DNA of 64,000 nucleotides from Diplonema japonicum (GCA_964019335.1 OZ025654.1:186001-250000), one strand, 5' to 3'. Shown: positions 5,907-19,708, numbered from the stretch's first letter. Translations and numbers: made by a program. Notes: generated from the letters alone by a model not told the origin.

Positions 5907-8900
5907 TCATACTTTGACAACACAGCTTCTCCGCAAAGGGTTTGTAGAATGAGATGCAAACGACTGCTGAGACTGCGAAAGCTCGAGCTGCCCCCCTACA
6001 TTATGCCTCTTTGGGCTTCTTGGCGTAAAGCCTTGAAGCCGACTTCTGCCCCTTGTCACATTAGCTAAAGAAGCAGGAGAGAGGGAAAGCGACCCCTTCA
6101 CGACACCAGACTTATAAGAAGCATCCGGACCACTCACAATGCTAGCAGGCGAGCAAGGCTGCGAACTAGTAATGCTAGCGGACCTAACAGACCGTGAAGT
6201 ACAGGGTGCCTCATACAGGGTAAGAGGAACTGCTGCAGTCTCATTGTTGTCATGGCGATCCCAAAAGGCTTGTTGAAGTTTTCCACGCCTGCCCCTCCAG
6301 AGGACGTAGATCTCGCAGAAGATGTCAAGAAGAGCCTTCCCGAGAAGGAGGAGGAGAGCGGCGAAGAAGATGCTTGAGGCGACCCCGAACTTCGCGTCCC
6401 ACGGGTCCTCCGTGTAGTACCCGAGGCACTGGAAGACCAGCGCCGTCGCCGTGAAGAGGTGGAAGCAGGTGTAGAAGGCAACGTCCCTCAGCCGTGCGTA
6501 CGGCCGTGTTATGACGTCGACCACTGCCACTGCCCCGAACACCACCGCGAGCCCCAGCTTCACGTTCCCGCACTCCCTCATCGTCGACATCGCCGGAACG
6601 TTCAGAGCCGACACCGTGAACTGCAGCAGGAAGGAGAAGACCACGAACCAGCAGCACCTCTCCCTGTAAGGCTTGACCATGCTCGTGAAGCGGTTGTACC
6701 ATAGGTCTTCCTTCCTCCTCGAGATCCACTCCCCCTTTCCGAGCATGAAGCGCCGGGTATCCGAGCACCCCTTCTCCTCCTCGTACAGGGCCTTCTTCGG
6801 GACGTCGCGTCGCACCACCATCCCAGTCAGGCAAGGGACCACGATGCACCCCATCGTGCACACCAGACCAATCACCACAGTGGGCGCCGTCCCCCATTCC
6901 CTCGACCCGTCCGTCCCAGGGTAGAACAGGATCTTCAAAGAGGCGAAGGTGGTTCCTTGATACAGCAGCAGGAAGATGAACAGGGAGACAGACGGGAACC
7001 GCGTCACCCCCATCGCCGAGAGGAGGGAGGTCATCGGGAGCAGCGACGGTGCCATCTTCAACACGAGCCACACAACCAGGTAGGTCGCGAGGGCAGCTGC
7101 CCCGGCGATCAGCGTGTTCCCCAACACTGCTCCGAGGTACTTCGAGCCTGCCACCGTCATCCCTGTCGGGTGCAGCATGAAGGGCAGGGACTTCTCTCCA
7201 AAGCACTGGTCCGACATCACAAGCGACAGCATCGTCATCGAGCCCGCCGCAGAGGTTCCCGACAGGACAGCCAGGACACCCGTCACAGAGCCGAGCGTCG
7301 GCATCTTCACCTGCGGCTCCGACACCACCCGCACCACGCACGAGGTTGCGATACCTCCGACTTTCACCTCCACCTTCAGGTCAGCCGAGCCCAACCCTTT
7401 CCACTTTCCCTTCCCCACCGCGCTGAGCTCCGTCCCTGACACAGGCTCCCCACTGCCCCACTTCATCTCGCCCAGCTTGTCCCCGTTCTCCACCACCTCC
7501 ACCCCCATGTCAGAGGGCAAGATCTTCCACGTTGAGGTGACCTTTACCGTCACGCCTTGTTGCTTCAGGTCTTCCGCCTTCACACTCTGGGGACAAACCG
7601 CACTCAAGTAACGGCCGGGGGCCAGCGTCGACGGAGAGAAGGTCTCGGGGGTGTTCGTTTGGGGTGCCCCTGTGTCGGGAGCAGCGGACAGCGGGACACC
7701 GGTATCAGGGACCCCGGTCACAAACACAGGGGGCGTCAGCGTCGCAGGTGAGAAGGTGGCCGTTGGAACAAGCGTGACGGGTATCAGGGTGGCAGGTGGG
7801 CTCGTGGCTGGTGCCACCGTCGGCTCCGCGGTCATCGGAATGAACGTGTACACAGGCACAGGTGCGCCCGTCGGCTGTGCCGTGGTTTTCGGGGCAAAGG
7901 TGGGCGGGGCTTGCGAGGGGACAGAGGTGGGTTGCGCCGTCGGTGTTTTCGGAGCCAGCGTCGGAGGGGCCGGGGTGGGAACTGCGGTCGGCTGCTGCGT
8001 CGTCGGAGGGGCTACTGTGGGCAAGGCCGTCACGGGCTGCAAGGTCGGGGCTGCAGTGGGCGGGGCGTCGGTTGGTGTTGCGGTGGGAGAGGTAGTCGGC
8101 ATTGAGGTCGCTCCAGGTAGAGCTGTTGTTGTTGGGGTGCCGGTTGCAGGGGCCCCAGTGGGGTTTGCCGTCGGAACCAAAGTAGGAGGGGCCCCGGTGG
8201 GGAGGGCCGTTGGCACCAGGGTAGGGGGTGCCGCTGTGGGAAGAGCTGTTGGAGCCGAAGTAGGTGGGGCCACAGTGGGAAGGGCCGTCGGAACCGAAGT
8301 TGGAGGAGCCACAGTGGGGTTTGCAGTTGGAACCAGAGTAGGAGGAGCCCCGGTGGGAAGGGCCGTCGGCACCACAGTCGGAGGTGCCACAGTTGGCACT
8401 GCGGTAGGTGTGACAGTAGTGCCGGGCACAGCTGTTGGGATGTCGGTCGGAACCAGAGTAGGAGGAGCCCCAGTGGGAATGGCTGTAGGTGCTGAAGTAG
8501 GAGGGGCTCCAGTGGGGTTTGCAGTCGGGGCCTGAGTGGGGGGCGCCGCTGTTGGAACTGCGGTTGGGACTGTCGTAGGGGGCGCAGCTGTTGGAATCGC
8601 AGTTGGTGCTATTGTGGGAGGGGCCGCTGTTGGGACAGCGGTTGGCACAATTGTAGGGGGCGCCACTGTCGGAATTGCAGTTGGTGTGATGGTTGGAGGG
8701 GCCGCTGTTGGAATTGCGGTTGGTACAATTGTAGGGGGTGCTCCTGTCGGAATTGCGGTTGGCACAATTGTAGGGGGTGCCCCTGTGGGGACCGCAGTTG
8801 GTACAACTGTTGGAGGGGCCGCTGTTGGAATTGCGGTTGGTACAATTGTAGGGGGTGCAACAGTTGGAATTGCGGTTGGCACAATTGTTGGAGGAGCACC

Positions 8901-10778
8901 GGTGGGAAGAGCCGTCGGCACCACAGTCGGAGGTGCAACAGTTGGCACTGCGGTAGGTGTGACAGTAGTGCCAGGCACAGCTGTTGGGATGTCGGTCGGG
9001 ACTAAAGTAGGAGGAGCCCCAGTGGGATTTGCAGTAGGGACCTGAGTGGGGGGTGCCCCTGTTGGAACCGCAGTTGGTGTGATGGTAGGAGGTGCTGCTG
9101 TCGGAATTGCAGTTGGAACCATCGTGGGAGGTGCTCCTGTTGGAATTGCAGTTGGTACAATTGTGGGGGGTGCCACCGTTGGAACCGCAGTTGGAACTAT
9201 GGTAGGAGGTGCCGCTGTGGGGACCGCAGTTGGTACTACTGTTGGGGGTGCCCCTGTTGGAATTGCGGTTGGTACAATAGTTGCAGGTGCTCCTGTGGGA
9301 ACTGCAGTTGGAACTATCGTAGGAGGTGCAGCAGTTGGAATTGCGGTAGGCACAATTGTAGGGGGTGCCCCTGTGGGAACCGCAGTTGGAACTATCGTAG
9401 GAGGTGCAGCAGTTGGAATTGCAGTTGGTACAATTGTAGGGGGTACTCCTGTGGGAACTGCAGTTGGTACAATTGTTGGCGGCGCTCCTGTTGGAATAGC
9501 AGTTGGAACTATGGTAGGAGGTGCCGCAGTTGGAATTGCAGTTGGTACAATAGTAAGGGGCGCCCCTGTGGGAACCGCAGTTGGTACAATTGTAGGGGGT
9601 GCTCCTGTTGGAATTGCGGTTGGTACAATAGTTGGTGGCGCTCCTGTGGGAACCGCAGTTGGAACTATGGTAGGAGGTGCCGCAGTTGGAATTGCGGTTG
9701 GTACAATAGTAGGGGGCGCCCCTGTGGGAACCGCAGTTGGCACAATTGTAGGGGGTGTTCCTGTTGGAATTGCGGTAGGCACAATTGTAGGGGGTGCTCC
9801 TGTGGGAACTGCAGTTGGTACAATTGTTGGCGGCGCTCCTGTTGGAATAGCAGTTGGAACTATAGTAGGAGGTGCTGCTGTTGGAATTGCAGTTGGTACA
9901 ATAGTAAGGGGCGCCCCTGTTGGAACCGCAGTTGGCACAATTGTCGGGGGTGCTCCTGTTGGAATTGCAGTTGGAACTATCGTAGGAGGTGCCGCAGTTG
10001 GAATTGCGGTTGGCACAATTGTAGGGGGTGCCACCGTGGGTATCGCAGTTGGTACAATTGTAGGGGGTGCTCCTGTTGGAATTGCAGTAGGCACAATTGT
10101 AGGGGGTGCTCCTGTGGGAACTGCAGTTGGTACAATTGTTGGCGGCGCTCCTGTGGGAACCGCAGTTGGAACTATAGTAGGAGGTGCTACTGTTGGAATT
10201 GCGGTTGGCACTATTGTAGGGGGTGCCACCGTGGGTATCGCAGTTGGAACAACTGTGGGAGGTGCCGCTGTGGGAACCGCAGTCTCCGGTGTCCACTCCC
10301 AGTAGATGGTGACCTCGAGGACGGCCCACCTCATACTAAAGATGTTATTGTCTTCGAATGTCCCTGACACAGTGAGAGGCGAGCTGCTGCCACAGGTAAG
10401 AAGCGAGGGAAGGGCACAGGTTGCGGAGGTACAGGCAGACGATTCACCACACCTAAGATAGTAGTTCTCTCTACATTTGCAGCCGAAAAGACTGGAATCC
10501 CTGCACTTCTCGGTGAACGACGACCCACACCAGCTAACCTTCCAATCTGCATCGGAAGCAGCGGATGTTGAAGACCATCCGAAGAGTCCCTTCTGCTCTC
10601 TGTCCACGTTGTGAATCTCTATTTTTGTGACCTGTATACTCCCCGCCTCGTGGGGAGACGGATTCATTGTGAAAGTGCAAGCATCGCCCTCCTTGATGTT
10701 ATAACACGAGTGGCTGTACTGCCGTGCGACGCCATGTACTGTGCTTGCAAACAAGAGGAGCGCGCACACCCCTCTCAT
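5907..10778 (-). CDS. Large surface protein: signal peptide, Cys-rich N domain, long Pro/Thr repeat stalk, 7-8 TM C-terminal domain (bodonin/DGF-1-like architecture)
   Basis: ORF 5907..10865; likely start MRGVCALLLF at 10778 after a polypyrimidine-AG. Family motifs LPFMLHPT, GAVLGN, RFPS..LYQG, GKGEW, PYRERCCWF. Confidence 0.88.
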   Translation of the reverse strand: MRGVCALLLFASTVHGVARQYSHSCYNIKEGDACTFTMNPSPHEAGSIQVTKIEIHNVDREQKGLFGWSSTSAASDADWKVSWCGSSFTEKCRDSSLFGCKCRENYYLRCGESSACTSATCALPSLLTCGSSSPLTVSGTFEDNNIFSMRWAVLEVTIYWEWTPETAVPTAAPPTVVPTAIPTVAPPTIVPTAIPTVAPPTIVPTAVPTGAPPTIVPTAVPTGAPPTIVPTAIPTGAPPTIVPTAIPTVAPPTIVPTAIPTAAPPTIVPTAIPTGAPPTIVPTAVPTGAPLTIVPTAIPTAAPPTIVPTAIPTGAPPTIVPTAVPTGAPPTIVPTAIPTGTPPTIVPTAVPTGAPPTIVPTAIPTAAPPTIVPTAVPTGAPPTIVPTAIPTGAPPTIVPTAVPTGAPLTIVPTAIPTAAPPTIVPTAIPTGAPPTIVPTAVPTGVPPTIVPTAIPTAAPPTIVPTAVPTGAPPTIVPTAIPTAAPPTIVPTAVPTGAPATIVPTAIPTGAPPTVVPTAVPTAAPPTIVPTAVPTVAPPTIVPTAIPTGAPPTMVPTAIPTAAPPTITPTAVPTGAPPTQVPTANPTGAPPTLVPTDIPTAVPGTTVTPTAVPTVAPPTVVPTALPTGAPPTIVPTAIPTVAPPTIVPTAIPTAAPPTVVPTAVPTGAPPTIVPTAIPTGAPPTIVPTAIPTAAPPTITPTAIPTVAPPTIVPTAVPTAAPPTIAPTAIPTAAPPTTVPTAVPTAAPPTQAPTANPTGAPPTSAPTAIPTGAPPTLVPTDIPTAVPGTTVTPTAVPTVAPPTVVPTALPTGAPPTLVPTANPTVAPPTSVPTALPTVAPPTSAPTALPTAAPPTLVPTALPTGAPPTLVPTANPTGAPATGTPTTTALPGATSMPTTSPTATPTDAPPTAAPTLQPVTALPTVAPPTTQQPTAVPTPAPPTLAPKTPTAQPTSVPSQAPPTFAPKTTAQPTGAPVPVYTFIPMTAEPTVAPATSPPATLIPVTLVPTATFSPATLTPPVFVTGVPDTGVPLSAAPDTGAPQTNTPETFSPSTLAPGRYLSAVCPQSVKAEDLKQQGVTVKVTSTWKILPSDMGVEVVENGDKLGEMKWGSGEPVSGTELSAVGKGKWKGLGSADLKVEVKVGGIATSCVVRVVSEPQVKMPTLGSVTGVLAVLSGTSAAGSMTMLSLVMSDQCFGEKSLPFMLHPTGMTVAGSKYLGAVLGNTLIAGAAALATYLVVWLVLKMAPSLLPMTSLLSAMGVTRFPSVSLFIFLLLYQGTTFASLKILFYPGTDGSREWGTAPTVVIGLVCTMGCIVVPCLTGMVVRRDVPKKALYEEEKGCSDTRRFMLGKGEWISRRKEDLWYNRFTSMVKPYRERCCWFVVFSFLLQFTVSALNVPAMSTMRECGNVKLGLAVVFGAVAVVDVITRPYARLRDVAFYTCFHLFTATALVFQCLGYYTEDPWDAKFGVASSIFFAALLLLLGKALLDIFCEIYVLWRGRRGKLQQAFWDRHDNNETAAVPLTLYEAPCTSRSVRSASITSSQPCSPASIVSGPDASYKSGVVKGSLSLSPASLANVTRGRSRLQGFTPRSPKRHNVGGQLELSQSQQSFASHSTNPLRRSCVVKV
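8140..10285 (-). repeat. Coding minisatellite, 39-bp unit (PTA[VI]PT[GAV]APPTIV), roughly 50 copies
   Basis: Visible in DNA and protein; includes a higher-order duplicated block containing PTDIPTAVPGTTVT at about 8340-8540 and 8880-9060. Confidence 0.95.
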
Positions 10779-10879
10779 AACGCCTGTTAGACAAATTTCT
10801 GCCGCACGGGGGGGAAAAAATAAAACAAAAAAAGAGTGGTAAAGAACGAATGTAGAAACATGCATTTATACCTACTACT

Positions 10880-11705: not shown

Positions 11706-14700
11706 CTACCTGCACCTATCCCCTTTCAGCAGCGGGTTCTCCTCCTTTGGTGGTCTTGCCGGCCTTCTCCCCAGCCTGGCCGCTCTTTCTCTTCGTTCTC
11801 TCGCCCATTGTCCTTTCAATGCCTCTAGGTCATGCTTGGTCTTCGGTGATGCAAATATCGCCCTCCTGTTCCATCCGATCACCGCCTTTGTCCTCCCGAT
11901 GGATCGTAGTGTGTGCACCCTTGTGCTCGGCTCAGCTGGGAAGGCCCTCCTTCCTTTCACCTTCTTCAGTACCCTCCCTAGCTCCCATGTGTGCCAGATC
12001 TTCTTCATCAGTCCATGCAATCTCCTCGCTTTCTGCTGTACTTCTGCGAGATCCCCCAGCTTCCCTCCAAGGGTCTTCCCGGTCACGTTCTCGAAATCCA
12101 GTGCCAGCTCCACCGTCGACACTGACGTGTTTCTGCTGCCTGCATACCAGCGCAGTTGCCGCATCCACCTCAGCACCTCCTTCGTGTACTCCCGTAGGAC
12201 ATCCCCTGCCGGTAGCTTGCCGAAGTCCTTGTCCGACGGTACTGGGTGTTCTTGACCTTGTGTGATCTCCAGCCACTGGTGTGTGTGGTACACCTCCTGC
12301 CTCTTCGCTTGTAGGGCTGCGTCCCGCTCCCCCACCACCGCCAGCAGGTACCTCTGCGTTCCTTCGAGCCTTTCCCTGACATCCTTCCCTGCTCCCCTTG
12401 GCAGGATGCCATGCAGCTTCGTACACGGTTCCAGCCCCCTGCGCGTCATGCCTTCGTGTTCTTCCCGCTGTTGCACTTCCTTGGCCTTTTCGCACTCCCA
12501 CAGTGCGTGCTCCAGCATGTTGGGCAGCTGTTGCTCCTGACCGCAGATGTCGCAGTGTGCCGTCGTGGGTTCGGCCTGCTTAGCTTCTTGCTTCCTCGCC
12601 TCCGCAATCAGCCACTTTTCGGTGTCCTGTCCTTCCTCTTCTTCTTCTTCTTGTTCATCTTCAGCCTCGTCTTCATCCTCGTCTTCTTCTCCTTCCGCCA
12701 TCGGGATGTGCTCCACCGTGTCCGTGCGCCATCCCCGTGGGTTGATGTAGAACACTGCCCCCGAGATGATCCTTCGCACGTCCCTTGCTGCAATCGGGTC
12801 CGTCACCACCAGCTTCCTCCACAGCGCGTTGGTCTCCGCTGCTGCCGCAGCTTCCATGCCCCCCATGGTGCTCCGTTTGCTCATGATTTCCTGTGCTTCC
12901 GCCCGCCTGAGTCGGTCCCTGATGTAGTGCTTGTAGGGCTCCTTTTCCAGTGCGTGGGTGTCCTTCAGCTGTGCCCAGCTTAACTTGATCTGAGGCAGCC
13001 ACCTTTCCATCATGATGCCCACCGGTCCCACCGGTATCTTCTTCCCGCTGTACCGTTTGGCAATGGCGTCGCAGCGTGTCCACAGCTTGTCGTCCTTCTT
13101 GCAGGCTCTGTATAGGAGCATAAGTGCTCTGTATGCGGCTGTCATCTGTGGGTGGCTCGTGTGTCCCGGCAGTGTCACGGATAGTACTGTGCCTGGGTTC
13201 CTGGTGCAGTACTTCTGCCCCCAGAGCGCGTACGTGGTCTCCTTCACCAGCGTGGCCATTTGTCCCGTTTTCGGCGGTGAGAATGGGCAGTCGTAGAGGC
13301 AGCTCGGTAGGATCGTGCTGCTGATGATCTTCGCCTTCTGCTGAAAGGACAACGGCGTTGCTCCCAGCCTGCTCAGCGTCCCGAGTGCCTCCGCCGTCCT
13401 GTCGCCGTTGGTTTGCGGCCTGCCGTCTGTCCGCAGCTTGGCTCCCAGTACTCCTACAGTCCGTGTCGGCTGCAGTTCCTCGCCTTTCACCTTCACCTCC
13501 GGTGTCTTCCTGTTCACTGCAAAGGTCTTCGTCTTCCTGGTGTTGAGCTTCATCCCCACCTGTTTGCAGAAGGCTTCCACTGCGTCTACGCCTTCCTGCA
13601 ACGCCGCACCGAGCCGTGCCAAGAGGTATGCATCGTCCGCGTAAGACAGCGAGCGGACCCCTGTGTCGTTCTCCACCTGCTTCATTAGTACCGCCAACAG
13701 CGCGTTGATGAGTACCACTGAAATCGGGCATCCCTGAAGGATTCCATTGGTTGTGTGGAACTCCTCCCCCACGCCTGCTGCGTACCTGAACCGTCTTCGC
13801 ATGCCTGCGTACATTCCTTTCAGTGCCCTGAGGATGCCTGTGTCCATGCCCATGTCCTCCACCAGCTCCAGAACCAGCTGTTGCGGTACACTGTCAAAGC
13901 ATTTCGCAAAGTCGAGTGCCACCCCGACTAGCGGTTTCCCCTCCAGAATGGATTCTTCGATGTCAAGGGCGAGGTCCAAAAGTGCGTCCTCTGTCCCGAA
14001 ACCCGTGCGGAATCCGTATTGCTTGTCGTGTATCCATTTCTCCTGCCAGATGAGGATATCAGACAGTCGCGCGCATGCCCAGAGTCTGTACACCGCAGAT
14101 GTGACTGTGATAGGCCTGTGCTCCAGTGGTCCCGCATCGTCGCACTTCGGTACGAGGGTAACCAGTGCCGTTTTCATGGCTTCCGGCCACCTCCCCGTTG
14201 CTTCGATCGCATGGAAGAGCATCGCCCAGGCGTCTAGTACTGACTCTGGTAGTTTCCGTAGCTCTAGCATCCTCCACCCGTCGATGCCTGCCGCGCTTTT
14301 CTTGCTTTTCTTTCTGAGCACTTCCCTCAGCCTTGCTCCCGTCAGTTGTGTCCTCTCCATCTCATGCCGTTGCACGAACTTGCTGTACTTTGCCTTGAAG
14401 GGGGCATAGAGGGGCTCCGGTCGGGACTCGTATTTCGCAAAGACGGTCTTCCACGCCTTGCGCATGACGCTGTCGATCAGTCCGGGGGACGCAAAGAGCA
14501 CCATCCCTTCCTTGACCGCCCTGGTTCCGTCGCTTTGACGTTTGCCTTTCGCGACTTTTACCAGTCTTGTTGTCTCGCGTCCTGCTGCAACCTCGGCCAG
14601 GTATTCTCGTCTCCGTGACGTGTTCGCCTCGGTCCTTTTCTTCCGTTCCTCAGCTGCAATTGCGTCTTCCATGTTCAGCGCTGCTGCCAGCATGTCCTCT

Positions 14701-16055
14701 ATGAGAACAGCGTCGTGCGGCACCGGTTCAGCTGGTACTGCCAGAGCCTTTGCTTCCCTGTTCACGTTTCTTATCGTGTTCAGGGTCGGCTTGCTTAGCC
14801 CCTTGTCCTCAACTGCTTGCTCGAGCTGTTGTTGCAGTGTCCGCGTCTTGAGCTTCAGCTTTTCCAGTCGCGCTTGCCATGTTGTAGCTGCACCCACCGT
14901 TCCCGTCGTCGTTGGTGCACACACTTCCTTCTCCTTTGTGCTGGTGTGTTTGCCTCTTCCGACGTACGCTGCCCTCCCCGGCGTCCCCACTGGTTGGTCT
15001 ATGAGGAGGTCTTCGGTGCACCGGGAGAGGGTCTCGAAGGCTTTTGTTATATTTCCTTCGTGCAGGTACTGTCGGAATCCGGCTGCTTCCACTGCTTCGG
15101 CTCCTTGTTCTTCCGTTGGCTCATCTGCCGTCTCCAGACCCCTCGGCAGCATGTATCGTTGTACCGTCATCCTGAATCTGTCGAGCTCAAGTGCAACCGT
15201 CAGTGTCCGGTGATCCGTCCCCTTGATCGCTTGGTTCACTTGGCATCCGGTGATGGCCGGTACTGCCTCCGGACTTGCCAGTATCCTGTCGATCCGCGTG
15301 GCGCAGTTCTCCCGTACAAACGTTGGATCAGGTTGTTTCCCTCTCCATTTTGCGCATAGGTCCGCTGTGTCCGCCCATCCTGCCTGCAGTGCCTTCCGCA
15401 GTTCCGGGGATCTTGCCTCGTCGGTGTTGAAGTCGCCAACGACGAGTATTGGCACATTGCCGAGCTCCTTCGCCTTCTTCCGCAGGATGTAGTGGAGGAG
15501 GGTCTCCCTCTTTGCGGTCTCTTCACGTCCTGTTCCTGCCGGGCAGTATATCGATATGATATGTAGCCATCTGCGTTTGCCATCGATTGCGACCTGAGTG
15601 TGCAGCCACCTCCTGCGTTGTTCTTCAGATTGGTCGTTGGTGTCCAGAGAACCTGGCAATGCTGTCCTGGGTTCTCGGATTAGGGTTGCCAGTCCTCCCC
15701 TCTGAGCTACCCAGTTCGAAGCGATTCCCTCCACCTTCCTTCCCGGCTGCGGCGGTCCCCACATCGGCTTCCACTTCTTCTTCGTCTTCTTCCCGAGCTC
15801 CCGCTCCATCTCCTGCTGCCCAGCTAAGGTCAGCGCCGTCTCCTGCGTGCAGATCACGTCGACGTCCAGCTTCGTCGTAACCTCCTCTATTTGGTTGCGT
15901 AGGGAGGCCACGTTCACTGTCGACACGTACATGTTGGGCCCAGGGTTCGGATGTATCCCCTGCGCCGTGAGCCTCGCGAAGTCCTCTTCCTCCTCTGACC
16001 CCGGTTTCCGCCTCCCCGTTTTCTGTTGGGGAGGTTTCCAATGCAGCTCACGCAT
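11706..16055 (-). CDS. LINE ORF2: 2A-like peptide, AP endonuclease, reverse transcriptase, acidic insert, CCHC zinc finger (start uncertain)
   Basis: APE motifs TVNVASL, VICTQET, LVVGDFN, RIDRIL, TDHR; RT motifs RPITV, QYGFR, LDFAKCFDSV, GILQGCPIS, SYADD; CDIC..EHALWEC. Frame open to 17261, but the part upstream of about 16055-16130 looks like a shadow of ORF1. Confidence 0.92.
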   Translation of the reverse strand: MRELHWKPPQQKTGRRKPGSEEEEDFARLTAQGIHPNPGPNMYVSTVNVASLRNQIEEVTTKLDVDVICTQETALTLAGQQEMERELGKKTKKKWKPMWGPPQPGRKVEGIASNWVAQRGGLATLIREPRTALPGSLDTNDQSEEQRRRWLHTQVAIDGKRRWLHIISIYCPAGTGREETAKRETLLHYILRKKAKELGNVPILVVGDFNTDEARSPELRKALQAGWADTADLCAKWRGKQPDPTFVRENCATRIDRILASPEAVPAITGCQVNQAIKGTDHRTLTVALELDRFRMTVQRYMLPRGLETADEPTEEQGAEAVEAAGFRQYLHEGNITKAFETLSRCTEDLLIDQPVGTPGRAAYVGRGKHTSTKEKEVCAPTTTGTVGAATTWQARLEKLKLKTRTLQQQLEQAVEDKGLSKPTLNTIRNVNREAKALAVPAEPVPHDAVLIEDMLAAALNMEDAIAAEERKKRTEANTSRRREYLAEVAAGRETTRLVKVAKGKRQSDGTRAVKEGMVLFASPGLIDSVMRKAWKTVFAKYESRPEPLYAPFKAKYSKFVQRHEMERTQLTGARLREVLRKKSKKSAAGIDGWRMLELRKLPESVLDAWAMLFHAIEATGRWPEAMKTALVTLVPKCDDAGPLEHRPITVTSAVYRLWACARLSDILIWQEKWIHDKQYGFRTGFGTEDALLDLALDIEESILEGKPLVGVALDFAKCFDSVPQQLVLELVEDMGMDTGILRALKGMYAGMRRRFRYAAGVGEEFHTTNGILQGCPISVVLINALLAVLMKQVENDTGVRSLSYADDAYLLARLGAALQEGVDAVEAFCKQVGMKLNTRKTKTFAVNRKTPEVKVKGEELQPTRTVGVLGAKLRTDGRPQTNGDRTAEALGTLSRLGATPLSFQQKAKIISSTILPSCLYDCPFSPPKTGQMATLVKETTYALWGQKYCTRNPGTVLSVTLPGHTSHPQMTAAYRALMLLYRACKKDDKLWTRCDAIAKRYSGKKIPVGPVGIMMERWLPQIKLSWAQLKDTHALEKEPYKHYIRDRLRRAEAQEIMSKRSTMGGMEAAAAAETNALWRKLVVTDPIAARDVRRIISGAVFYINPRGWRTDTVEHIPMAEGEEDEDEDEAEDEQEEEEEEGQDTEKWLIAEARKQEAKQAEPTTAHCDICGQEQQLPNMLEHALWECEKAKEVQQREEHEGMTRRGLEPCTKLHGILPRGAGKDVRERLEGTQRYLLAVVGERDAALQAKRQEVYHTHQWLEITQGQEHPVPSDKDFGKLPAGDVLREYTKEVLRWMRQLRWYAGSRNTSVSTVELALDFENVTGKTLGGKLGDLAEVQQKARRLHGLMKKIWHTWELGRVLKKVKGRRAFPAEPSTRVHTLRSIGRTKAVIGWNRRAIFASPKTKHDLEALKGQWARERRERAARLGRRPARPPKEENPLLKGDRCR

Positions 16056-17773
16056 TGTTCCTGCCTGCAGTTCTCCATGGCGCACACCCTCGCCCTCCTG
16101 CCTTTCAGCTGGCCATGACATGACCCGCATTGACCCTGTGAGGCTTGGTAGGTCGCTGACCAAGCATGGACATGCACCTTCTGCTTCTTCTTCTCCTTGC
16201 CTTGCAGCTTCCCTTCCGACGAGGTTGTTGGCTTCCTGTGGCCGGGGCTGCTGGGGTCGGGCTTCTTCGGCGACGGGGAGGGTGAGGGAGTCTGGCTCCT
16301 CTGTCGCTTCGGTGACGCTGCCTTGTTCGTGTTCGTGTTCGTGCTTGTCTTTTTCGGGGACACTGCACCTGCCGCCGCCGCCGTCGCAGGCTTCTTCTTC
16401 GCCGTCGGCGTCTCCGTGTTCTGTTCCGGAGTGCCGCTCCTCTGCCGCTTCGGGGATGCAGCGCTTGTCGTGGCTGCTGGGGTCGTCGCGGCCCTGTTCT
16501 CCATCGCCCTGCGTGCCACCTTCCTTAGCGCATCTTTGAGGCGGTCGACTTCGCTCTGCAACTTCGTGACGAGCATTTTGTATTGCTCTAGCTCTGTTGC
16601 GTTGATCGTGGTGTCCTTCTGTTGCTGTTGTTGTTGTTGTTGTTGTTCTTGCTTCTGCGGCTTCTTTGTCTTCTTCTTCTTCTGTTCTGTGGTCGTGTCC
16701 GCGGTCGCGTCCTTCTGCTCCCGTTCCTGCAGCTTCTCGGGGTCGGCGGCCGCCCAGTACTCCTCGCCCTTGTTCTTGCCGTAAAAACAGAGGAACTCGG
16801 GCTTGGAGTATCGTGTGTCGCAGTTTTCGTTGGGGTCCTTCCTCGTTTCCCCTTTCGCCACCACCATTTGCAGTGGTTGCTGCTTCCACGCCGCCGTCAG
16901 CGCCATCCGGTGCTCCCCCACCTGCACCTCGCCGAACGGGGGCTGCCCTGCCGACTGGACCACCGCCAGTTGCCGCCCCTTCTTCGGGATGACGCGAATG
17001 ACCGTCGCGTCCTTCCACCCGTTGTTCCGTAGCAAGCCCTGCACCTGCTCGCCCGTGATCCCGCGTGGCACACTGTGGAGGTCGAACTTTCGTCCGGCCC
17101 CTGTTCCCACCAGCAAGCCGGCCTCCTGTGCTTTGTGTCTGGCGTCGTCGCTGTCCAGGTTCCCGTCTTGCACCAAACCGAGACCCCTCCCGTTGCTTGT
17201 GAGGGTGGCCGTAGGTCCTCCGATCCCCCGCGCCGCCGCCACGTCCCACGTCCTCAGCCATAGTGGTGGCTGCTTCTCTCGCTTCCTCCTGCGGTCCTCT
17301 ACGAACAAGCCCCCCGCACCAGCCTGCTTCGCCTTCCCTTCTTCGTTGGCCGCCACGTAGACCAGGAGGTCCAGCTTGGTCAGCTGTCCCTCCAGGCCTC
17401 GCCTCTTGGCTCTGAGATCCCCCGCAGGGTGACTCCCAGCGCCTTGAGTGCCTTCACCGTCTCGTTCTTGGCGTCCGCTTGCACCTTCGCCCACCCGTCC
17501 TCCCCGGATGCGGCTCTCCACCAGATGGCTCGCAGTACGATCGTGCTGCTGCTGCTGCTGTCGTTGTCGTCGTCCTCGTCCATCCACTTCTCCTGCACCT
17601 CCTGCACCTGACGAGAAGGCCATTCCTTCGCCGTCACCTTCTGCGCTTGCACCGGCTTCACTGACCATTCGCGCCACCTGCACCCATGTTGATGATGCTG
17701 CCTCCTTCTGGGGAGTTTGCTCCCCCCCCTTGGGAGGGGACCCAGGGCCACCACGTGGAGGTTCCCCAGCCAT
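15914..17773 (-). CDS. LINE ORF1 (619 aa): RRM-like region, coiled coil, basic SP-rich tract, C-terminal Cys/His finger
   Basis: ATG 47 nt after a polypyrimidine-AG; FDLHSVPRGITGEQVQGLLRNNGW; coiled coil ELEQYKMLVTKLQSEVDRLKDAL; SPKRQRS twice; H-x12-C-x2-C-x11-C-x4-C-x4-C-x2-C. Confidence 0.82.
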   Translation of the reverse strand: MAGEPPRGGPGSPPKGGEQTPQKEAASSTWVQVARMVSEAGASAEGDGEGMAFSSGAGGAGEVDGRGRRQRQQQQQHDRTASHLVESRIRGGRVGEGASGRQERDGEGTQGAGSHPAGDLRAKRRGLEGQLTKLDLLVYVAANEEGKAKQAGAGGLFVEDRRRKREKQPPLWLRTWDVAAARGIGGPTATLTSNGRGLGLVQDGNLDSDDARHKAQEAGLLVGTGAGRKFDLHSVPRGITGEQVQGLLRNNGWKDATVIRVIPKKGRQLAVVQSAGQPPFGEVQVGEHRMALTAAWKQQPLQMVVAKGETRKDPNENCDTRYSKPEFLCFYGKNKGEEYWAAADPEKLQEREQKDATADTTTEQKKKKTKKPQKQEQQQQQQQQQKDTTINATELEQYKMLVTKLQSEVDRLKDALRKVARRAMENRAATTPAATTSAASPKRQRSGTPEQNTETPTAKKKPATAAAAGAVSPKKTSTNTNTNKAASPKRQRSQTPSPSPSPKKPDPSSPGHRKPTTSSEGKLQGKEKKKQKVHVHAWSATYQASQGQCGSCHGQLKGRRARVCAMENCRQEQCVSCIGNLPNRKRGGGNRGQRRKRTSRGSRRRGYIRTLGPTCTCRQ

Positions 17774-17794
17774 CTTTGATTGCGATTATTTTGA

Positions 17795-18352
17795 TTAATT
17801 CCAACCCAAATTACCAGCCCCTGAGAAAGAAGAAAAAAAAAATACCTTTACGGCTGACCCGCTGATACAATTGAACTCCTTAAGCTGCTGGTTCCATCGT
17901 TTGAAATTGTCGTTGATAGTTGTGATATTGTTCTGCATAGAGGGGAAGGTCCTTGCGACAGCAGTGAAGTGTGCGAGGCCTATACCGTTAATGAAGCCTA
18001 TCTGCCCCTCAGCAAGGGCACGTTCTTTATCGCGATCAAACATAGGGAGCACGGTCTCCCCCAGTTCACGCTCCTTGTCCCCTTGGCAGTAGAACTCTTC
18101 TGTAACAGCGACGGCCCATTTTTTTGAGATGGCGAATGGTTTTGTGATGTTGCTGATGTCGGCAGACTTCAGCAAAATCTGCAGTAGTGTCATCCTATGA
18201 TCGTCGTTGTGGAGATCGAAGCAGCCCATCGAACGCAGCGCGTCGTGCAGCTCCTTATGCCTTGCCATGTCAGTCGCGAGAATGCAGTTTATCATAATCT
18301 TGTAAGCGTGCTTCTGATCGTCTTGATTCAAGGAACTGAATATATCATAGTC
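17795..18352 (-). CDS. Class I cyclic-nucleotide phosphodiesterase, C-terminal half of catalytic domain (5' part lost at gap)
   Basis: CILATDMARH, LLKSADISN, WAVAVTEEFYCQGDKE, LPMFDR, GQIGFI; frame open up to the N-run (DYDIFSSLNQ). True C-terminus uncertain. Confidence 0.92.
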   Translation of the reverse strand, partial: DYDIFSSLNQDDQKHAYKIMINCILATDMARHKELHDALRSMGCFDLHNDDHRMTLLQILLKSADISNITKPFAISKKWAVAVTEEFYCQGDKERELGETVLPMFDRDKERALAEGQIGFINGIGLAHFTAVARTFPSMQNNITTINDNFKRWNQQLKEFNCISGSAVKVFFFSSFSGAGNLGWN

Positions 18353-18552
18353 NNNNNNNNNNNNNNNNNNNNNNNNNNNNNNNNNNNNNNNNNNNNNNNN
18401 NNNNNNNNNNNNNNNNNNNNNNNNNNNNNNNNNNNNNNNNNNNNNNNNNNNNNNNNNNNNNNNNNNNNNNNNNNNNNNNNNNNNNNNNNNNNNNNNNNNN
18501 NNNNNNNNNNNNNNNNNNNNNNNNNNNNNNNNNNNNNNNNNNNNNNNNNNNN
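18353..18552. other. Assembly gap (200 N)
   Basis: Run of N; true size and adjacency unknown. Confidence 1.
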
Positions 18553-19530
18553 TCGTGCGGGTTTGCGGGTTTGCGGGTTTGCCCCGGCTCCCATCAGGTC
18601 GACCTCTTCAACACCCATCTTCCGCAGATGGTCCTGGACAGTGCGCCTCGTCTCCTTCTCGCAGGGCCCCCTCCCCTCGTAGACGTCGAGGGTGACCTTC
18701 CTTCCATCCCTCACCCACGCCTTCACTTTGATCAGGTCCTTGACCTTTCCCACTGGGGCCCTTATCCTTGCATCGCTCTCCAAGAACTCACGTAGTGTCA
18801 CCTTGGTAGCGCCGGCTCCCGCCGCAATGCCCACTACCCCTTCCTTCCCCGGTGTCGGGTGGTGTCTGCACCCCCGGGTCTGCAACTTGACCACCCTCCA
18901 TGCCGTTTCCAGAGTCCCCTTGAGCACGCCACCCTTGAAACGAACAGGTTGCACCGCCGAACACCCACACGCGTACGTGATCTGGAAATCCTGGACCGTC
19001 CTCGGGAACTCGAACTCGCGGTATGTCTCCGACTTCTGCACCTTACAACCCACAATGGGGCTGCGGCGCTCTCCGTCTGACCCACCTTCCATGTATCCAA
19101 GTCCAGCAATACCAATCTGGCCAGCCATAGCCACCTCCAGCGGAACACCCAGCGACTCGGCCTTCGCAAGAAGCATCTCCTCAGTCCTCTCCCTTCCAGG
19201 GTCCGTTCCTTCTTCAAGGATGATCTCCACCCGGCCCTCGAACTGGATGATGAACTTGAGCAGTCGGTCCCCCGGCCTCGCCCTCAGTGGCACCATCGCT
19301 CTCGGAATTGGGATGCCCATCACCACATCAATCGGGTCAAGCTGAACGAAGTCTCCCCCTACTTCCACCTGCTGTTCCCTTTCCGGTGCCCCGACTCCCA
19401 TCAGCTGATCTCCCTCTGGCGTCTGGATCCCACCCCTAGGTGTGTCAGGCCCCGACTGGCTGCCTCCGCTCGGTGCGTTCCCGCCCTCTTTGGTCCCTTC
19501 AGGGGCGTCATCCGCCTGCGGCTTCAGAGT
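18553..19530 (-). CDS. Hypothetical ORF truncated by gap, possibly from a second mobile element
   Basis: Over 280 open codons; GC-rich and sense-purine-rich like the neighbouring LINE; frame stays open upstream of ATG 19401; scattered C/H residues (YACGC, GCRHH); no recognised domain. Confidence 0.45.
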
Positions 19531-19708
19531 CTGAAGTAGGTATAGATACGACCCCGAACTCGTCTTTATTCCATTATCTTATTGCAACCGGGTAGCGCAA
19601 TGTTGCATTTCGAGGCCACGTCTAGATGAACGTGGTAATGCTCATTTTGTGCCTGTCGTGCATGATTGATTAATAGGAAGCAGAAGGCAATAAGACTAAC
19701 GGCCAACC

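What the first reader, a model, noticed from the sequence alone, without database searches (positions are those of the whole stretch)
15914..16130. LINE with ORF1/ORF2 overlap in the -1 frame followed by a 2A-like StopGo motif
Seen: ORF2 reads EEEEDFARLTAQGIHPNPG|P (GIHPNPGP at 15936-15959) directly before the APE domain and still inside ORF1. ORF2 is -1 relative to ORF1. Two near-slippery heptamers, T GGA AAC (16034-16040) and C GGA AAC (16004-16010), lie between the ORF1 zinc finger and the motif. Known: D[VI]ExNPGP 2A peptides precede APE in L1Tc/ingi-type and other LINEs; canonical slip sites are X XXY YYZ. Inference: ORF2p may need two recoding steps (-1 frameshift to set dosage, then ribosomal skip to release APE-RT). 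Both signals are non-canonical, so internal initiation or a sequencing indel in a single polyprotein ORF remain possible.
Basis: partly seen in the sequence, partly recalled or inferred. Interest (0 to 1): 0.78.

Follow-up and report, generated by a model that had tools for sequence, protein, structure and literature searches.

The report
Two-gene LINE with skip-peptide leader
A jumping gene (LINE retrotransposon) of the marine flagellate Diplonema keeps its two genes one base out of step in its other copies too, but its first gene normally stops before the virus-like 2A peptide and the proposed frameshift sites are not conserved, so ribosomes likely restart at a start codon beside that stop, and the 2A-like peptide would then shed a short leader from the copying enzyme.

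Summary
The coordinates are right, and the -1 offset is no sequencing indel: contigs from the five public runs that span it (of six laid), including another organism's copy at 93% identity, keep it. But this window copy is atypical. At 16024 every covering contig reads UGA where the window has AGA, and 11 of 11 transcript-derived proteins agree. So family ORF1 ends six residues after its zinc finger, 63 nt before the 2A core. The second heptamer lies beyond that stop. The first is altered in two relatives, occurs at chance frequency and has no downstream structure. -1 frameshifting is therefore poorly supported. The 2A-like motif looks real: no change in a 74-nt block in the relative, similar motifs before APE in two D. 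ambulator LINEs, and GIHPNPGP recurs behind known StopGo upstream motifs. Skipping is untested. All four variants seen have an ORF2-frame AUG within -31 to +5 nt of the stop, so termination-reinitiation followed by StopGo is the best reading. One oddity remains: the ORF2 frame is open across all of ORF1 (0 stops in 546 codons, about 5-8 expected). Two-ORF LINEs with an ORF2 2A are a known minority.

The parts
17821..17845 (-). Polypyrimidine tract ending in CAG just before the element's 5' end (looks like a splice or trans-splice acceptor), 48 nt upstream of the ORF1 AUG
   Evidence: Most pyrimidine-rich AG context in 15880-17900; loose ends of other copies show a U-rich tract and CAG at the same place. 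Function not tested.
16022..17773 (-). ORF1 as in the family: AUG 17773 to UGA 16024-16022. Contains a weakly RRM-like N-terminal region, a coiled coil, a basic Ser/Pro tail and a C-terminal zinc finger
   Evidence: Homologues P0021 and P0022 (D. japonicum) and P0023, P0025, P0027, P0028 (D. papillatum). Fold model is poor (pLDDT 48); many of its weak top hits are RRM proteins, none at E<=0.001.
17391..17664 (-). Stretch of ORF1 read in the wrong frame in this copy: it lacks 5 nt at 17664 and 1 nt at 17390 relative to the family (compensating shifts)
   Evidence: table 4 (X6, X7, X1; X11 no cover); P0021 N-terminus
17685..17687 (-). Second AUG of the element. In the family it opens the ORF2 frame, which stays open through all of ORF1 (start of 1916-aa P0001)
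   Evidence: The homologous place in subfamily 2 reads GUG (loose end, read by hand).
16043..16174 (-). ORF1 C-terminal His/Cys zinc finger (HxH...CxxC...CxxxxC...CxxC)
   Evidence: Sequence. P0022 ends with the same finger and stops three residues after it; weak C1_2 hit on P0022, E 0.65.
16053..16055 (-). ORF2-frame AUG 31 nt upstream of the family ORF1 stop; candidate reinitiation codon, 39 codons before the skip proline
   Evidence: no change listed there in organism C
16034..16040 (-). Heptamer 1, T GGA AAC (Gly-Asn of ORF1): non-canonical, not conserved
16022..16024 (-). Family ORF1 stop (UGA); AGA in this copy, which extends its ORF1 by 36 codons to 15914
15936..15977 (-). 2A/StopGo-like peptide ARLTAQ-GIHPNPG|P (core 15959-15936; predicted skip before Pro 15938)
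15930..15932 (-). In-frame AUG two codons after the skip proline, at the start of APE; alternative ORF2 start, 89 nt after the family stop
   Evidence: subfamily 2 also has a Met just before the first APE strand (loose end, read by hand)
15210..15920 (-). APE endonuclease domain, catalytic motifs present
   Evidence: Pfam PF03372 E 2.5e-12; motifs located
13488..14126 (-). Reverse transcriptase domain (YADD at 13643)
   Evidence: Pfam PF00078 E 1e-25; best solved relative human L1 ORF2p, E 3.6e-21
12492..12554 (-). C-terminal CxxC...H...C zinc knuckle of ORF2; no RNase H found
   Evidence: Pfam
11706..11708 (-). ORF2 stop codon

Best explanation
This is a young, multi-copy, two-ORF APE-RT LINE of Diplonema japonicum whose ORF1 ends at a UGA six codons after its zinc finger; ribosomes likely restart at an out-of-frame AUG beside that stop, read a leader of about 30-40 residues, and the 2A-like GIHPNPG|P motif would then release APE-RT as a separate protein. 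Shown: the two-ORF layout, the -1 offset, the family stop at 16024, an ORF2-frame AUG within -31 to +5 nt of the stop in four variants, and conservation of the 2A-coding block. Inferred: termination-reinitiation as the entry route, and skipping activity. The likely effect is a low ORF2p:ORF1p ratio and a fixed N-terminus for the endonuclease whichever upstream start is used. The longer overlap in this window is a private defect of one copy.
For: Stop at 16024 in all covering contigs (4 of 4 runs; 3 of 4) and in 11 of 11 transcript proteins. A distant D. japonicum ORF1 (P0022) also ends right after the finger. Upstream of the stop, constraint is on ORF1: organism C changes are ORF1-synonymous in 9 of 13 and ORF2-nonsynonymous in 13 of 13. 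Downstream it passes to ORF2: 0 changes in 15995-15922 against 18 in the other 247 nt (Fisher p 0.017, block chosen after looking), and both listed subfamily-2 changes inside the 2A region are ORF2-synonymous. ORF2-frame AUGs: 16055 (main family, organism C), about 16046 (subfamily 2, read by hand from a loose end), 16019 in a UGA-UAA-UG overlap (minor variant). Background is 9-12% of 13-codon windows. [quoted passage not shown] 2As lie about 40-80 aa from the ORF2 N-terminus in other LINEs (PMC3708506); here 39 codons. D. ambulator P0004 and P0005 carry CGD(V/I)HPNPGP before APE. GIHPNPGP follows a known StopGo upstream motif in 25 of 91 distinct contexts in public contigs, 6 of them LTx[E/D/Q] like ours. 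p12=G and p14=H are functional natural variants (PMC12846837, passages).
Against: No translation data. The AUG position is not fixed, and Cys codons of the finger raise the chance of an ORF2-frame AUG there. 16055 is 31 nt upstream of the stop, at the edge of the viral range. The minor variant with UGAUAAUG is low-depth, lacks a finger cysteine and is unalignable upstream of 16081, so it may be a decayed copy. No UGGGA TURBS-like motif (motif recalled) was seen by eye in the 115 nt before the stop, and no structure follows it. The 2A lacks the Trp and Asp of the W-x-x-D-L-T-x-E-G class (PMC12338488, PMC12846837), and an E-to-H LINE 2A (Crack clade) had very low activity (PMC3708506). The closest D. 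ambulator relative (P0003, 47% identity) has an OTU domain and no 2A. The open ORF2 frame over all of ORF1 is not explained by this model. A Met right after the skip site could serve as the start.
Confidence: 0.5

Rival explanations
1. Long disposable leader. ORF2 starts far upstream, by leaky scanning or alternative spliced-leader addition, at the element's second AUG (17687) or another early ORF2-frame AUG. It reads about 580 junk codons overlapping ORF1, and StopGo cuts the junk off.
For: The ORF2 frame has 0 stops in 546 ORF1 codons against 7.8 expected from codon shuffles (P 8e-5); after a third-position T, 0 of 25 give a stop against 19 of 88 in ORF2 (Fisher p 0.007). AUG 17687 has A at -3 and G at +4. 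Transcript ORF callers give this 1916-aa product. Amino acids of the overlap frame are unconstrained, as expected of a discarded leader.
Against: The shuffle null overstates stops: ORF2's own -1 frame has 19 against 25.7 with an open run of 407 codons, and ORF1's +1 frame has 11 against 18.7, so the real P is nearer 0.003-0.01. Subfamily 2 has GUG at 17687. One X6 contig (4% of depth there, absent in X7 and X1) puts a stop in this frame at 16328. The ORF1 AUG context is also strong.
Confidence: 0.14
2. One reading: -1 ribosomal frameshifting near the end of ORF1 makes an ORF1-leader fusion, and StopGo then releases APE-RT.
For: The -1 offset is conserved in all variants, including subfamily 2 (record positions 8 and 1792). 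The ORF2 frame is open upstream, so a slip anywhere in ORF1 would work. The stop and linker length are conserved. Paramecium LINEs were proposed to use +1 frameshifting or reinitiation (PMC5405496, passages).
Against: No canonical heptamer in ORF1 phase. Heptamer 1 is altered in organism C and subfamily 2; heptamer 2 lies past the stop. The motif occurs at chance frequency. No stimulatory fold. Third positions just before the stop vary synonymously.
Confidence: 0.12
3. The 2A-like peptide is weak or inactive, or is bypassed. ORF2p starts by L1-like reinitiation at Met 15932 after an 89-nt spacer, or is made with the short leader still attached; the motif acts mainly as a pause or drop-off signal.
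For: A Met just before APE in both main subfamilies. Human L1 has a similar short spacer (recalled). The E-to-H core had very low activity in Crack elements (PMC3708506). Many retrotransposon 2A-like peptides lowered protein output rather than skipped (bioRxiv 10.64898/2026.06.17.732966, passages).
Against: Conservation of the 2A-coding block and of the frame of the leader implies that the leader is translated. The motif recurs at the same place in D. ambulator elements.
Confidence: 0.13
4. ORF2 is translated from a separate mRNA made by spliced-leader trans-splicing to an AG inside ORF1's 3' end (for example the CAG at 16138-16136 before AUG 16130).
For: SL trans-splicing is general in Euglenozoa (PMC10161547, passages). 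ORF2-frame AUGs at 16130, 16121 and 16055 follow that AG.
Against: No U-rich tract precedes any internal AG; the only strong acceptor-like site is at the 5' end. 11 of 11 transcript-derived full-length proteins start at 17687, though short-read assemblies would hide minor SL forms.
Confidence: 0.09
5. The offset is a sequencing or copy-specific indel in a single ORF1-2A-APE-RT polyprotein frame.
For: This copy does carry private indels and substitutions. One low-depth organism D contig has a 41-nt deletion (16129-16169) that would put ORF1 into the ORF2 frame, but it ends before the junction.
Against: Gap-free contigs across the junction in X1, X7, X11 and X12, and the same phase in subfamily 2 and in transcripts. 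ORF1-frame synonymy right up to a conserved stop.
Confidence: 0.02

Closest known systems
Two-ORF APE LINEs with a 2A near the ORF2 N-terminus: CR1-26_BF, CR1-53_BF, CR1-1_LG (Odon et al. 2013, PMC3708506; Luke et al. 2013, PMC3894237)
   Same: ORF1 present, and a 2A-like motif about 40 residues into ORF2 ahead of APE-RT.
   Different: Host is a diplonemid. Core is G-I-H-P-NPGP with an LTxQ upstream context rather than GD(V/I)ExNPGP. ORF2's candidate start overlaps the end of ORF1 in the -1 frame. RT clade not determined here.
L1Tc and Ingi of trypanosomes (PMC3894237, PMC12278014)
   Same: Euglenozoan APE-RT LINE with a 2A-like peptide before APE.
   Different: Ingi-clade elements have one ORF and an RNase H; this one has a full ORF1 and no RNase H hit. 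Pr77 not tested.
SART1 UAAUG translational coupling (Kojima 2005, as cited in PMC3708506 and PMC10275272; original not read) and viral termination-reinitiation
   Same: Out-of-frame ORF2 start at or near the ORF1 stop; one minor variant here reads UGAUAAUG.
   Different: AUG position varies (-31, about -22, +5). No downstream structure found. No 2A is described for SART1 in the passages read.
StopGo upstream motif 1, (R/K)DLTxE-G(V/I)EPNPGP (Li et al. 2026, PMC12846837), also called class B 2A (PMC12338488)
   Same: G at p12, P at p15, Leu-Thr in register; H at p14 is a listed functional variant.
   Different: Lacks the upstream Trp and the Asp before Leu-Thr; Gln replaces Glu.
Paramecium LINE groups 1-3 (PMC5405496, passages)
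   Same: Protist two-ORF LINEs with a zinc finger at the ORF1 end and an unresolved ORF2 entry route (frameshift, reinitiation or readthrough).
   Different: There the offset is +1 or 0; no 2A is mentioned in the passages read.

Membership tests
APE-type non-LTR retrotransposon | APE domain followed by RT in one ORF | tested here: met
   Pfam PF03372 and PF00078 above cut-off; motifs present; L1 ORF2p best PDB hit
APE-type non-LTR retrotransposon | Dispersed multi-copy family | tested here: met
   X1 contig depth about 360-390 over the element against 17 on the flank; differing loose ends at the 5' end. Depth is only a rough guide.
APE-type non-LTR retrotransposon | ORF1 is a nucleic-acid-binding protein | tested here: inconclusive
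   No Pfam hit above cut-off; low-confidence model with only weak RRM-type hits
APE-type non-LTR retrotransposon | Target-site duplication and 3' tail | tested here: inconclusive
   Simple k-mer comparison of both ends found only T-runs and 7-mers; 3' end not mapped
2A/StopGo peptide | Core (D/G/C/N)(V/I)ExNPGP | tested here: not met
   GIHPNPGP has H for E; this is a listed rare, functional variant (PMC12846837), so it may still work like one
2A/StopGo peptide | Supportive upstream motif | tested here: inconclusive
   ARLTAQ matches LTx[E/D/Q] in register (6 of 91 public contexts) but lacks W and D
2A/StopGo peptide | Conserved as protein up to the terminal Pro, near the ORF2 N-terminus before APE | tested here: met
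   subfamily 2 diverges right after G-P with an in-frame 9-nt insertion (joint)
2A/StopGo peptide | Peptide-bond skipping between Gly and Pro | not testable with these tools
   Needs a reporter or N-terminal proteomics
-1 programmed ribosomal frameshift | X XXY YYZ heptamer in ORF1 phase before the ORF1 stop | tested here: not met
   None canonical; three near-matches in 455 codons
-1 programmed ribosomal frameshift | Slip site conserved among relatives | tested here: not met
   T GGG AGC in organism C, C GGA AAG in subfamily 2
-1 programmed ribosomal frameshift | Stimulatory structure 5-9 nt downstream | tested here: not met
   z -0.61 for 16030-15930; pseudoknots not modelled
Termination-reinitiation (SART1 or TURBS type) | Downstream-ORF AUG within about 30 nt of the upstream stop | tested here: met
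   -31, -31, about -22 and +5 nt in 4 of 4 variants
Termination-reinitiation (SART1 or TURBS type) | Cis-acting RNA element (TURBS upstream or structure downstream) | tested here: inconclusive
   No downstream fold; no UGGGA seen by eye in the main family (motif recalled); host 18S complementarity not tested
Termination-reinitiation (SART1 or TURBS type) | ORF2 output depends on ORF1 terminating nearby | not testable with these tools
   Needs reporters
Ingi/L1Tc clade | Single ORF, no ORF1 | tested here: not met
   Conserved ORF1 with homologues in two Diplonema species
Ingi/L1Tc clade | RNase H domain | tested here: not met
   No Pfam hit in the ORF2 C-terminal part
Ingi/L1Tc clade | RT phylogeny and Pr77 signature | not tested
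   No clade reference set was on hand

The most novel reading that the evidence does not exclude
The whole of ORF1 is double-read. Selection keeps the ORF2 frame free of stops across about 580 codons so that ribosomes starting at a later AUG make a throw-away leader in ORF1's alternative frame, and the StopGo peptide exists to discard that junk. A 2A would then act as a universal adaptor that frees the LINE enzyme from whichever upstream start, slip or restart the ribosome used.
Probability: 0.14. Interest if true: 0.75.

Novelty: new variant of a known kind. Interest (0 to 1): 0.4.

Why it matters
How ORF2 of two-ORF LINEs is translated is an open question (PMC3894237). This young family has natural variants that keep the stop and the 2A block while moving the nearby AUG, which makes a compact test set for reinitiation in a host with spliced-leader mRNAs. 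It also supplies a G-I-H-P-NPGP StopGo candidate in a cellular element. It is not the double-recoding (-1 frameshift plus skip) system first proposed, and two-ORF LINEs with an ORF2 2A are already known as a minority.

Tried and rejected
No whole genome is held and the window has no second copy, so copies were compared through contigs of public runs. No RNA holder was listed; X12 and X13 are only guessed to be RNA, and contigs cannot show RNA ends, so an SL-spliced ORF2 mRNA was not tested. A word-indexed search with this copy's ORF1 found 0 of 7991 candidates. A search for shorter ORF2 relatives found 1 of 7249 (P0020, with GEAKNPGP before APE) and no subfamily-2 protein. The search for related loci in metagenomes: 203 pattern matches, none confirmed. 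Of 130 GIHPNPGP loci, 1 (L004) hit my small APE profile and RT query and 5 show an APE-like first strand; none is a close relative. The ORF2 control was in the wrong frame and was redone. The ORF1 fold is too poor to name the domain. The Atlas gave only generic APE-RT clusters. Rejected: indel artefact; heptamer 2 as a slip site; Ingi membership; a Euplotes-like shift at the stop codon (considered from memory, no support). Earlier-finding look-ups by sequence and relatives were blank.


Full report
What is there. The - strand of 17.8-11.7 kb holds a full-length LINE. ORF2 encodes APE (15920-15210) and RT (14126-13488), a C-terminal CxxC-H-C knuckle and no RNase H. Transcript-derived proteins identical to it come from Diplonema japonicum.

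Other copies. No genome was held, so I laid public contigs on the element: 6 of 18 listed runs, in two calls. In X1 the element has depth about 360-390 against 17 on the flank, roughly 20 copies. Across 15914-16130 the main family and a 1229-nt contig of organism C (22 differences in 321 nt) have no gap. The only listed gap wholly inside it is an in-frame 3-nt loss in a minor variant. A second subfamily, one 3074-nt contig, has the same -1 phase by record coordinates. The offset is therefore real. One exception: a low-depth organism D contig has a 41-nt deletion that would join ORF1 to the ORF2 frame, but it ends before the junction, and other organism D pieces are broken.

This copy is atypical. 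At 16024 all covering depth reads the other base (4 of 4 runs; 3 of 4, X13 uncovered). That makes ORF1 codon AGA a UGA. All 11 full-length transcript proteins have Leu at the matching ORF2 codon. Family ORF1 thus ends C-I-G-N-L-P-N-stop, six residues after its finger. Subfamily 2 ends C-I-G-K-V-L-N-stop at the same place (loose end, read by hand), and a 31%-identical ORF1 from the same species, P0022, ends three residues after its finger. The copy also lacks 5 nt at 17664 and 1 nt at 17390, which garble 91 ORF1 codons (P0021). Contigs drop rare variants, so private mutation and assembly error cannot be told apart.

Frameshift signals fail. Heptamer 2 lies beyond the family stop. Heptamer 1 is just Gly-Asn of ORF1. 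It reads T GGG AGC in organism C and C GGA AAG in subfamily 2. YGGAAAC occurs 26 times in the window against 23.1 expected. No canonical site exists in ORF1 phase. The next 100 nt fold no better than shuffles (pseudoknots not modelled). Upstream of the stop, organism C changes are ORF1-synonymous in 9 of 13 cases and change the ORF2-frame residue in 13 of 13.

The 2A-like motif looks real. Organism C has no change in 15995-15922 against 18 in the other 247 nt (p 0.017, block chosen after looking). Both listed subfamily-2 changes in the motif region are synonymous, but only 3 of its 11 differences in 15940-16017 were listed. Subfamily 2 keeps G-P with other codons and diverges right after it. 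Of four D. ambulator ORF2 hits, two carry CGD(V/I)HPNPGP before APE, one has an OTU domain instead, and one starts inside APE. A scan for the exact octamer gave 130 loci and 91 distinct contexts. Of these, 25 follow a known StopGo upstream motif (6 LTx[E/D/Q], 11 PxL[V/I], 8 Leu-rich), 16 have a stop within 8 codons and 50 are other; 5 loci run into an APE-like first strand. Li et al. report G at p12 and H at p14 as natural variants, with p14=H over 95% active (PMC12846837: part 1 of 7 and passages). Against this, our peptide lacks the Trp that class B needs (PMC12338488: passages), and an E-to-H LINE 2A was nearly inactive (PMC3708506: parts 1-2 of 6 and passages). I put skipping at about 55%.

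How ribosomes likely reach the motif. Each of four variants has an ORF2-frame AUG close to the stop: 16055 (main family, organism C), about 16046 (subfamily 2) and 16019 in UGA-UAA-UG (minor variant, which loses 16055). Background is 9-12% per 13-codon window, higher in a Cys-rich finger, and the minor variant may be decayed. This geometry matches SART1 and viral restarts (PMC10275272: passages; PMC3894237: parts 1-2 of 3). It also places the skip site 39 codons into ORF2, near the 40-80 reported for LINE 2As. I favour termination-reinitiation followed by StopGo (0.50). Neither step is shown.

The unexplained observation. In the family the ORF2 frame is open from the element's second AUG (17687) to the end, giving the 1916-aa P0001. 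It has 0 stops in 546 ORF1 codons against 7.8 expected. Controls show that the null overstates stops (ORF2's -1 frame 19 against 25.7, with a 407-codon open run; ORF1's +1 frame 11 against 18.7), so I read P as about 0.003-0.01. Subfamily 2 has GUG at that AUG, and one minor X6 contig has a stop in the frame. This keeps a long-disposable-leader model alive at about 0.14.

Comparison and novelty. 2A-like peptides before APE are established in L1Tc/Ingi, Rex1, L2, CR1 and Crack elements, mostly without ORF1; CR1-26_BF, CR1-53_BF and CR1-1_LG have both (PMC3708506, PMC3894237). This element is not Ingi by two tested features. Searches for a description in diplonemids found none: searches returned a trypanosomatid survey (PMC12278014, passages), the D. 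papillatum genome paper (PMC10161547, passages; it defers TE classification) and reviews. Their supplements and Repbase were not checked. I did not test it. If right, the same layout with a different phase would fit a phase-independent entry such as reinitiation, although its writer preferred readthrough.

Verdict. Observation partly confirmed; interpretation partly supported (StopGo plausible, -1 frameshift not supported). New variant of a known kind; interest 0.40.

Noticed in passing
window 17821-17845 (-): The element's 5' end follows a U-rich tract and CAG here and in other copies' loose ends. It may insert behind, or carry, a splice or trans-splice acceptor that would give it a spliced leader 48 nt before the ORF1 AUG.
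   Followed up: partly
P0003 (D. ambulator), P0036 (D. papillatum): Close relatives carry an OTU-like protease domain at the ORF2 N-terminus where this element has the 2A (PF02338 E 7e-10 on P0003; P0036 by eye). The two could be alternative N-terminal modules.
   Followed up: partly
P0024, P0026, P0029; ORF1 about 16860-16730 (-): A short ORF1 module (R-x-DP...Y...EF...YG...W) is repeated several times in apparent host proteins of diplonemids; possibly a domain shared between host genes and the transposon.
   Followed up: no
window 17850-18352 (-): The upstream flank encodes what looks like the C-terminal part of a cyclic-nucleotide phosphodiesterase (recognised from memory, no family search) that runs up to the element's 5' end; a 200-N gap follows at 18353-18552.
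   Followed up: no
window 18553-19578 (-): An ORF fragment of 416 codons with no Pfam hit and A/G-rich composition like a second repeat element.
   Followed up: partly
window 5907-10865 (-): 1652-aa host protein with a long PTAxPTxAPPTIV-type repeat and several C-terminal hydrophobic segments, probably a surface protein.
   Followed up: no
P0002 versus P0001: Transcript isoforms share the 5' half but have two different C-terminal halves, which suggests mosaic subfamilies or assembly chimeras.
   Followed up: no
L013, L017, L038, L047, L059, L089, L018, L046, L048, L100: GIHPNPGP, a double departure from the textbook core, recurs after DLTxE and PAPxLV motifs in viral-like and transposon-like ORFs, so it is a recurrent natural StopGo-like core.
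   Followed up: partly
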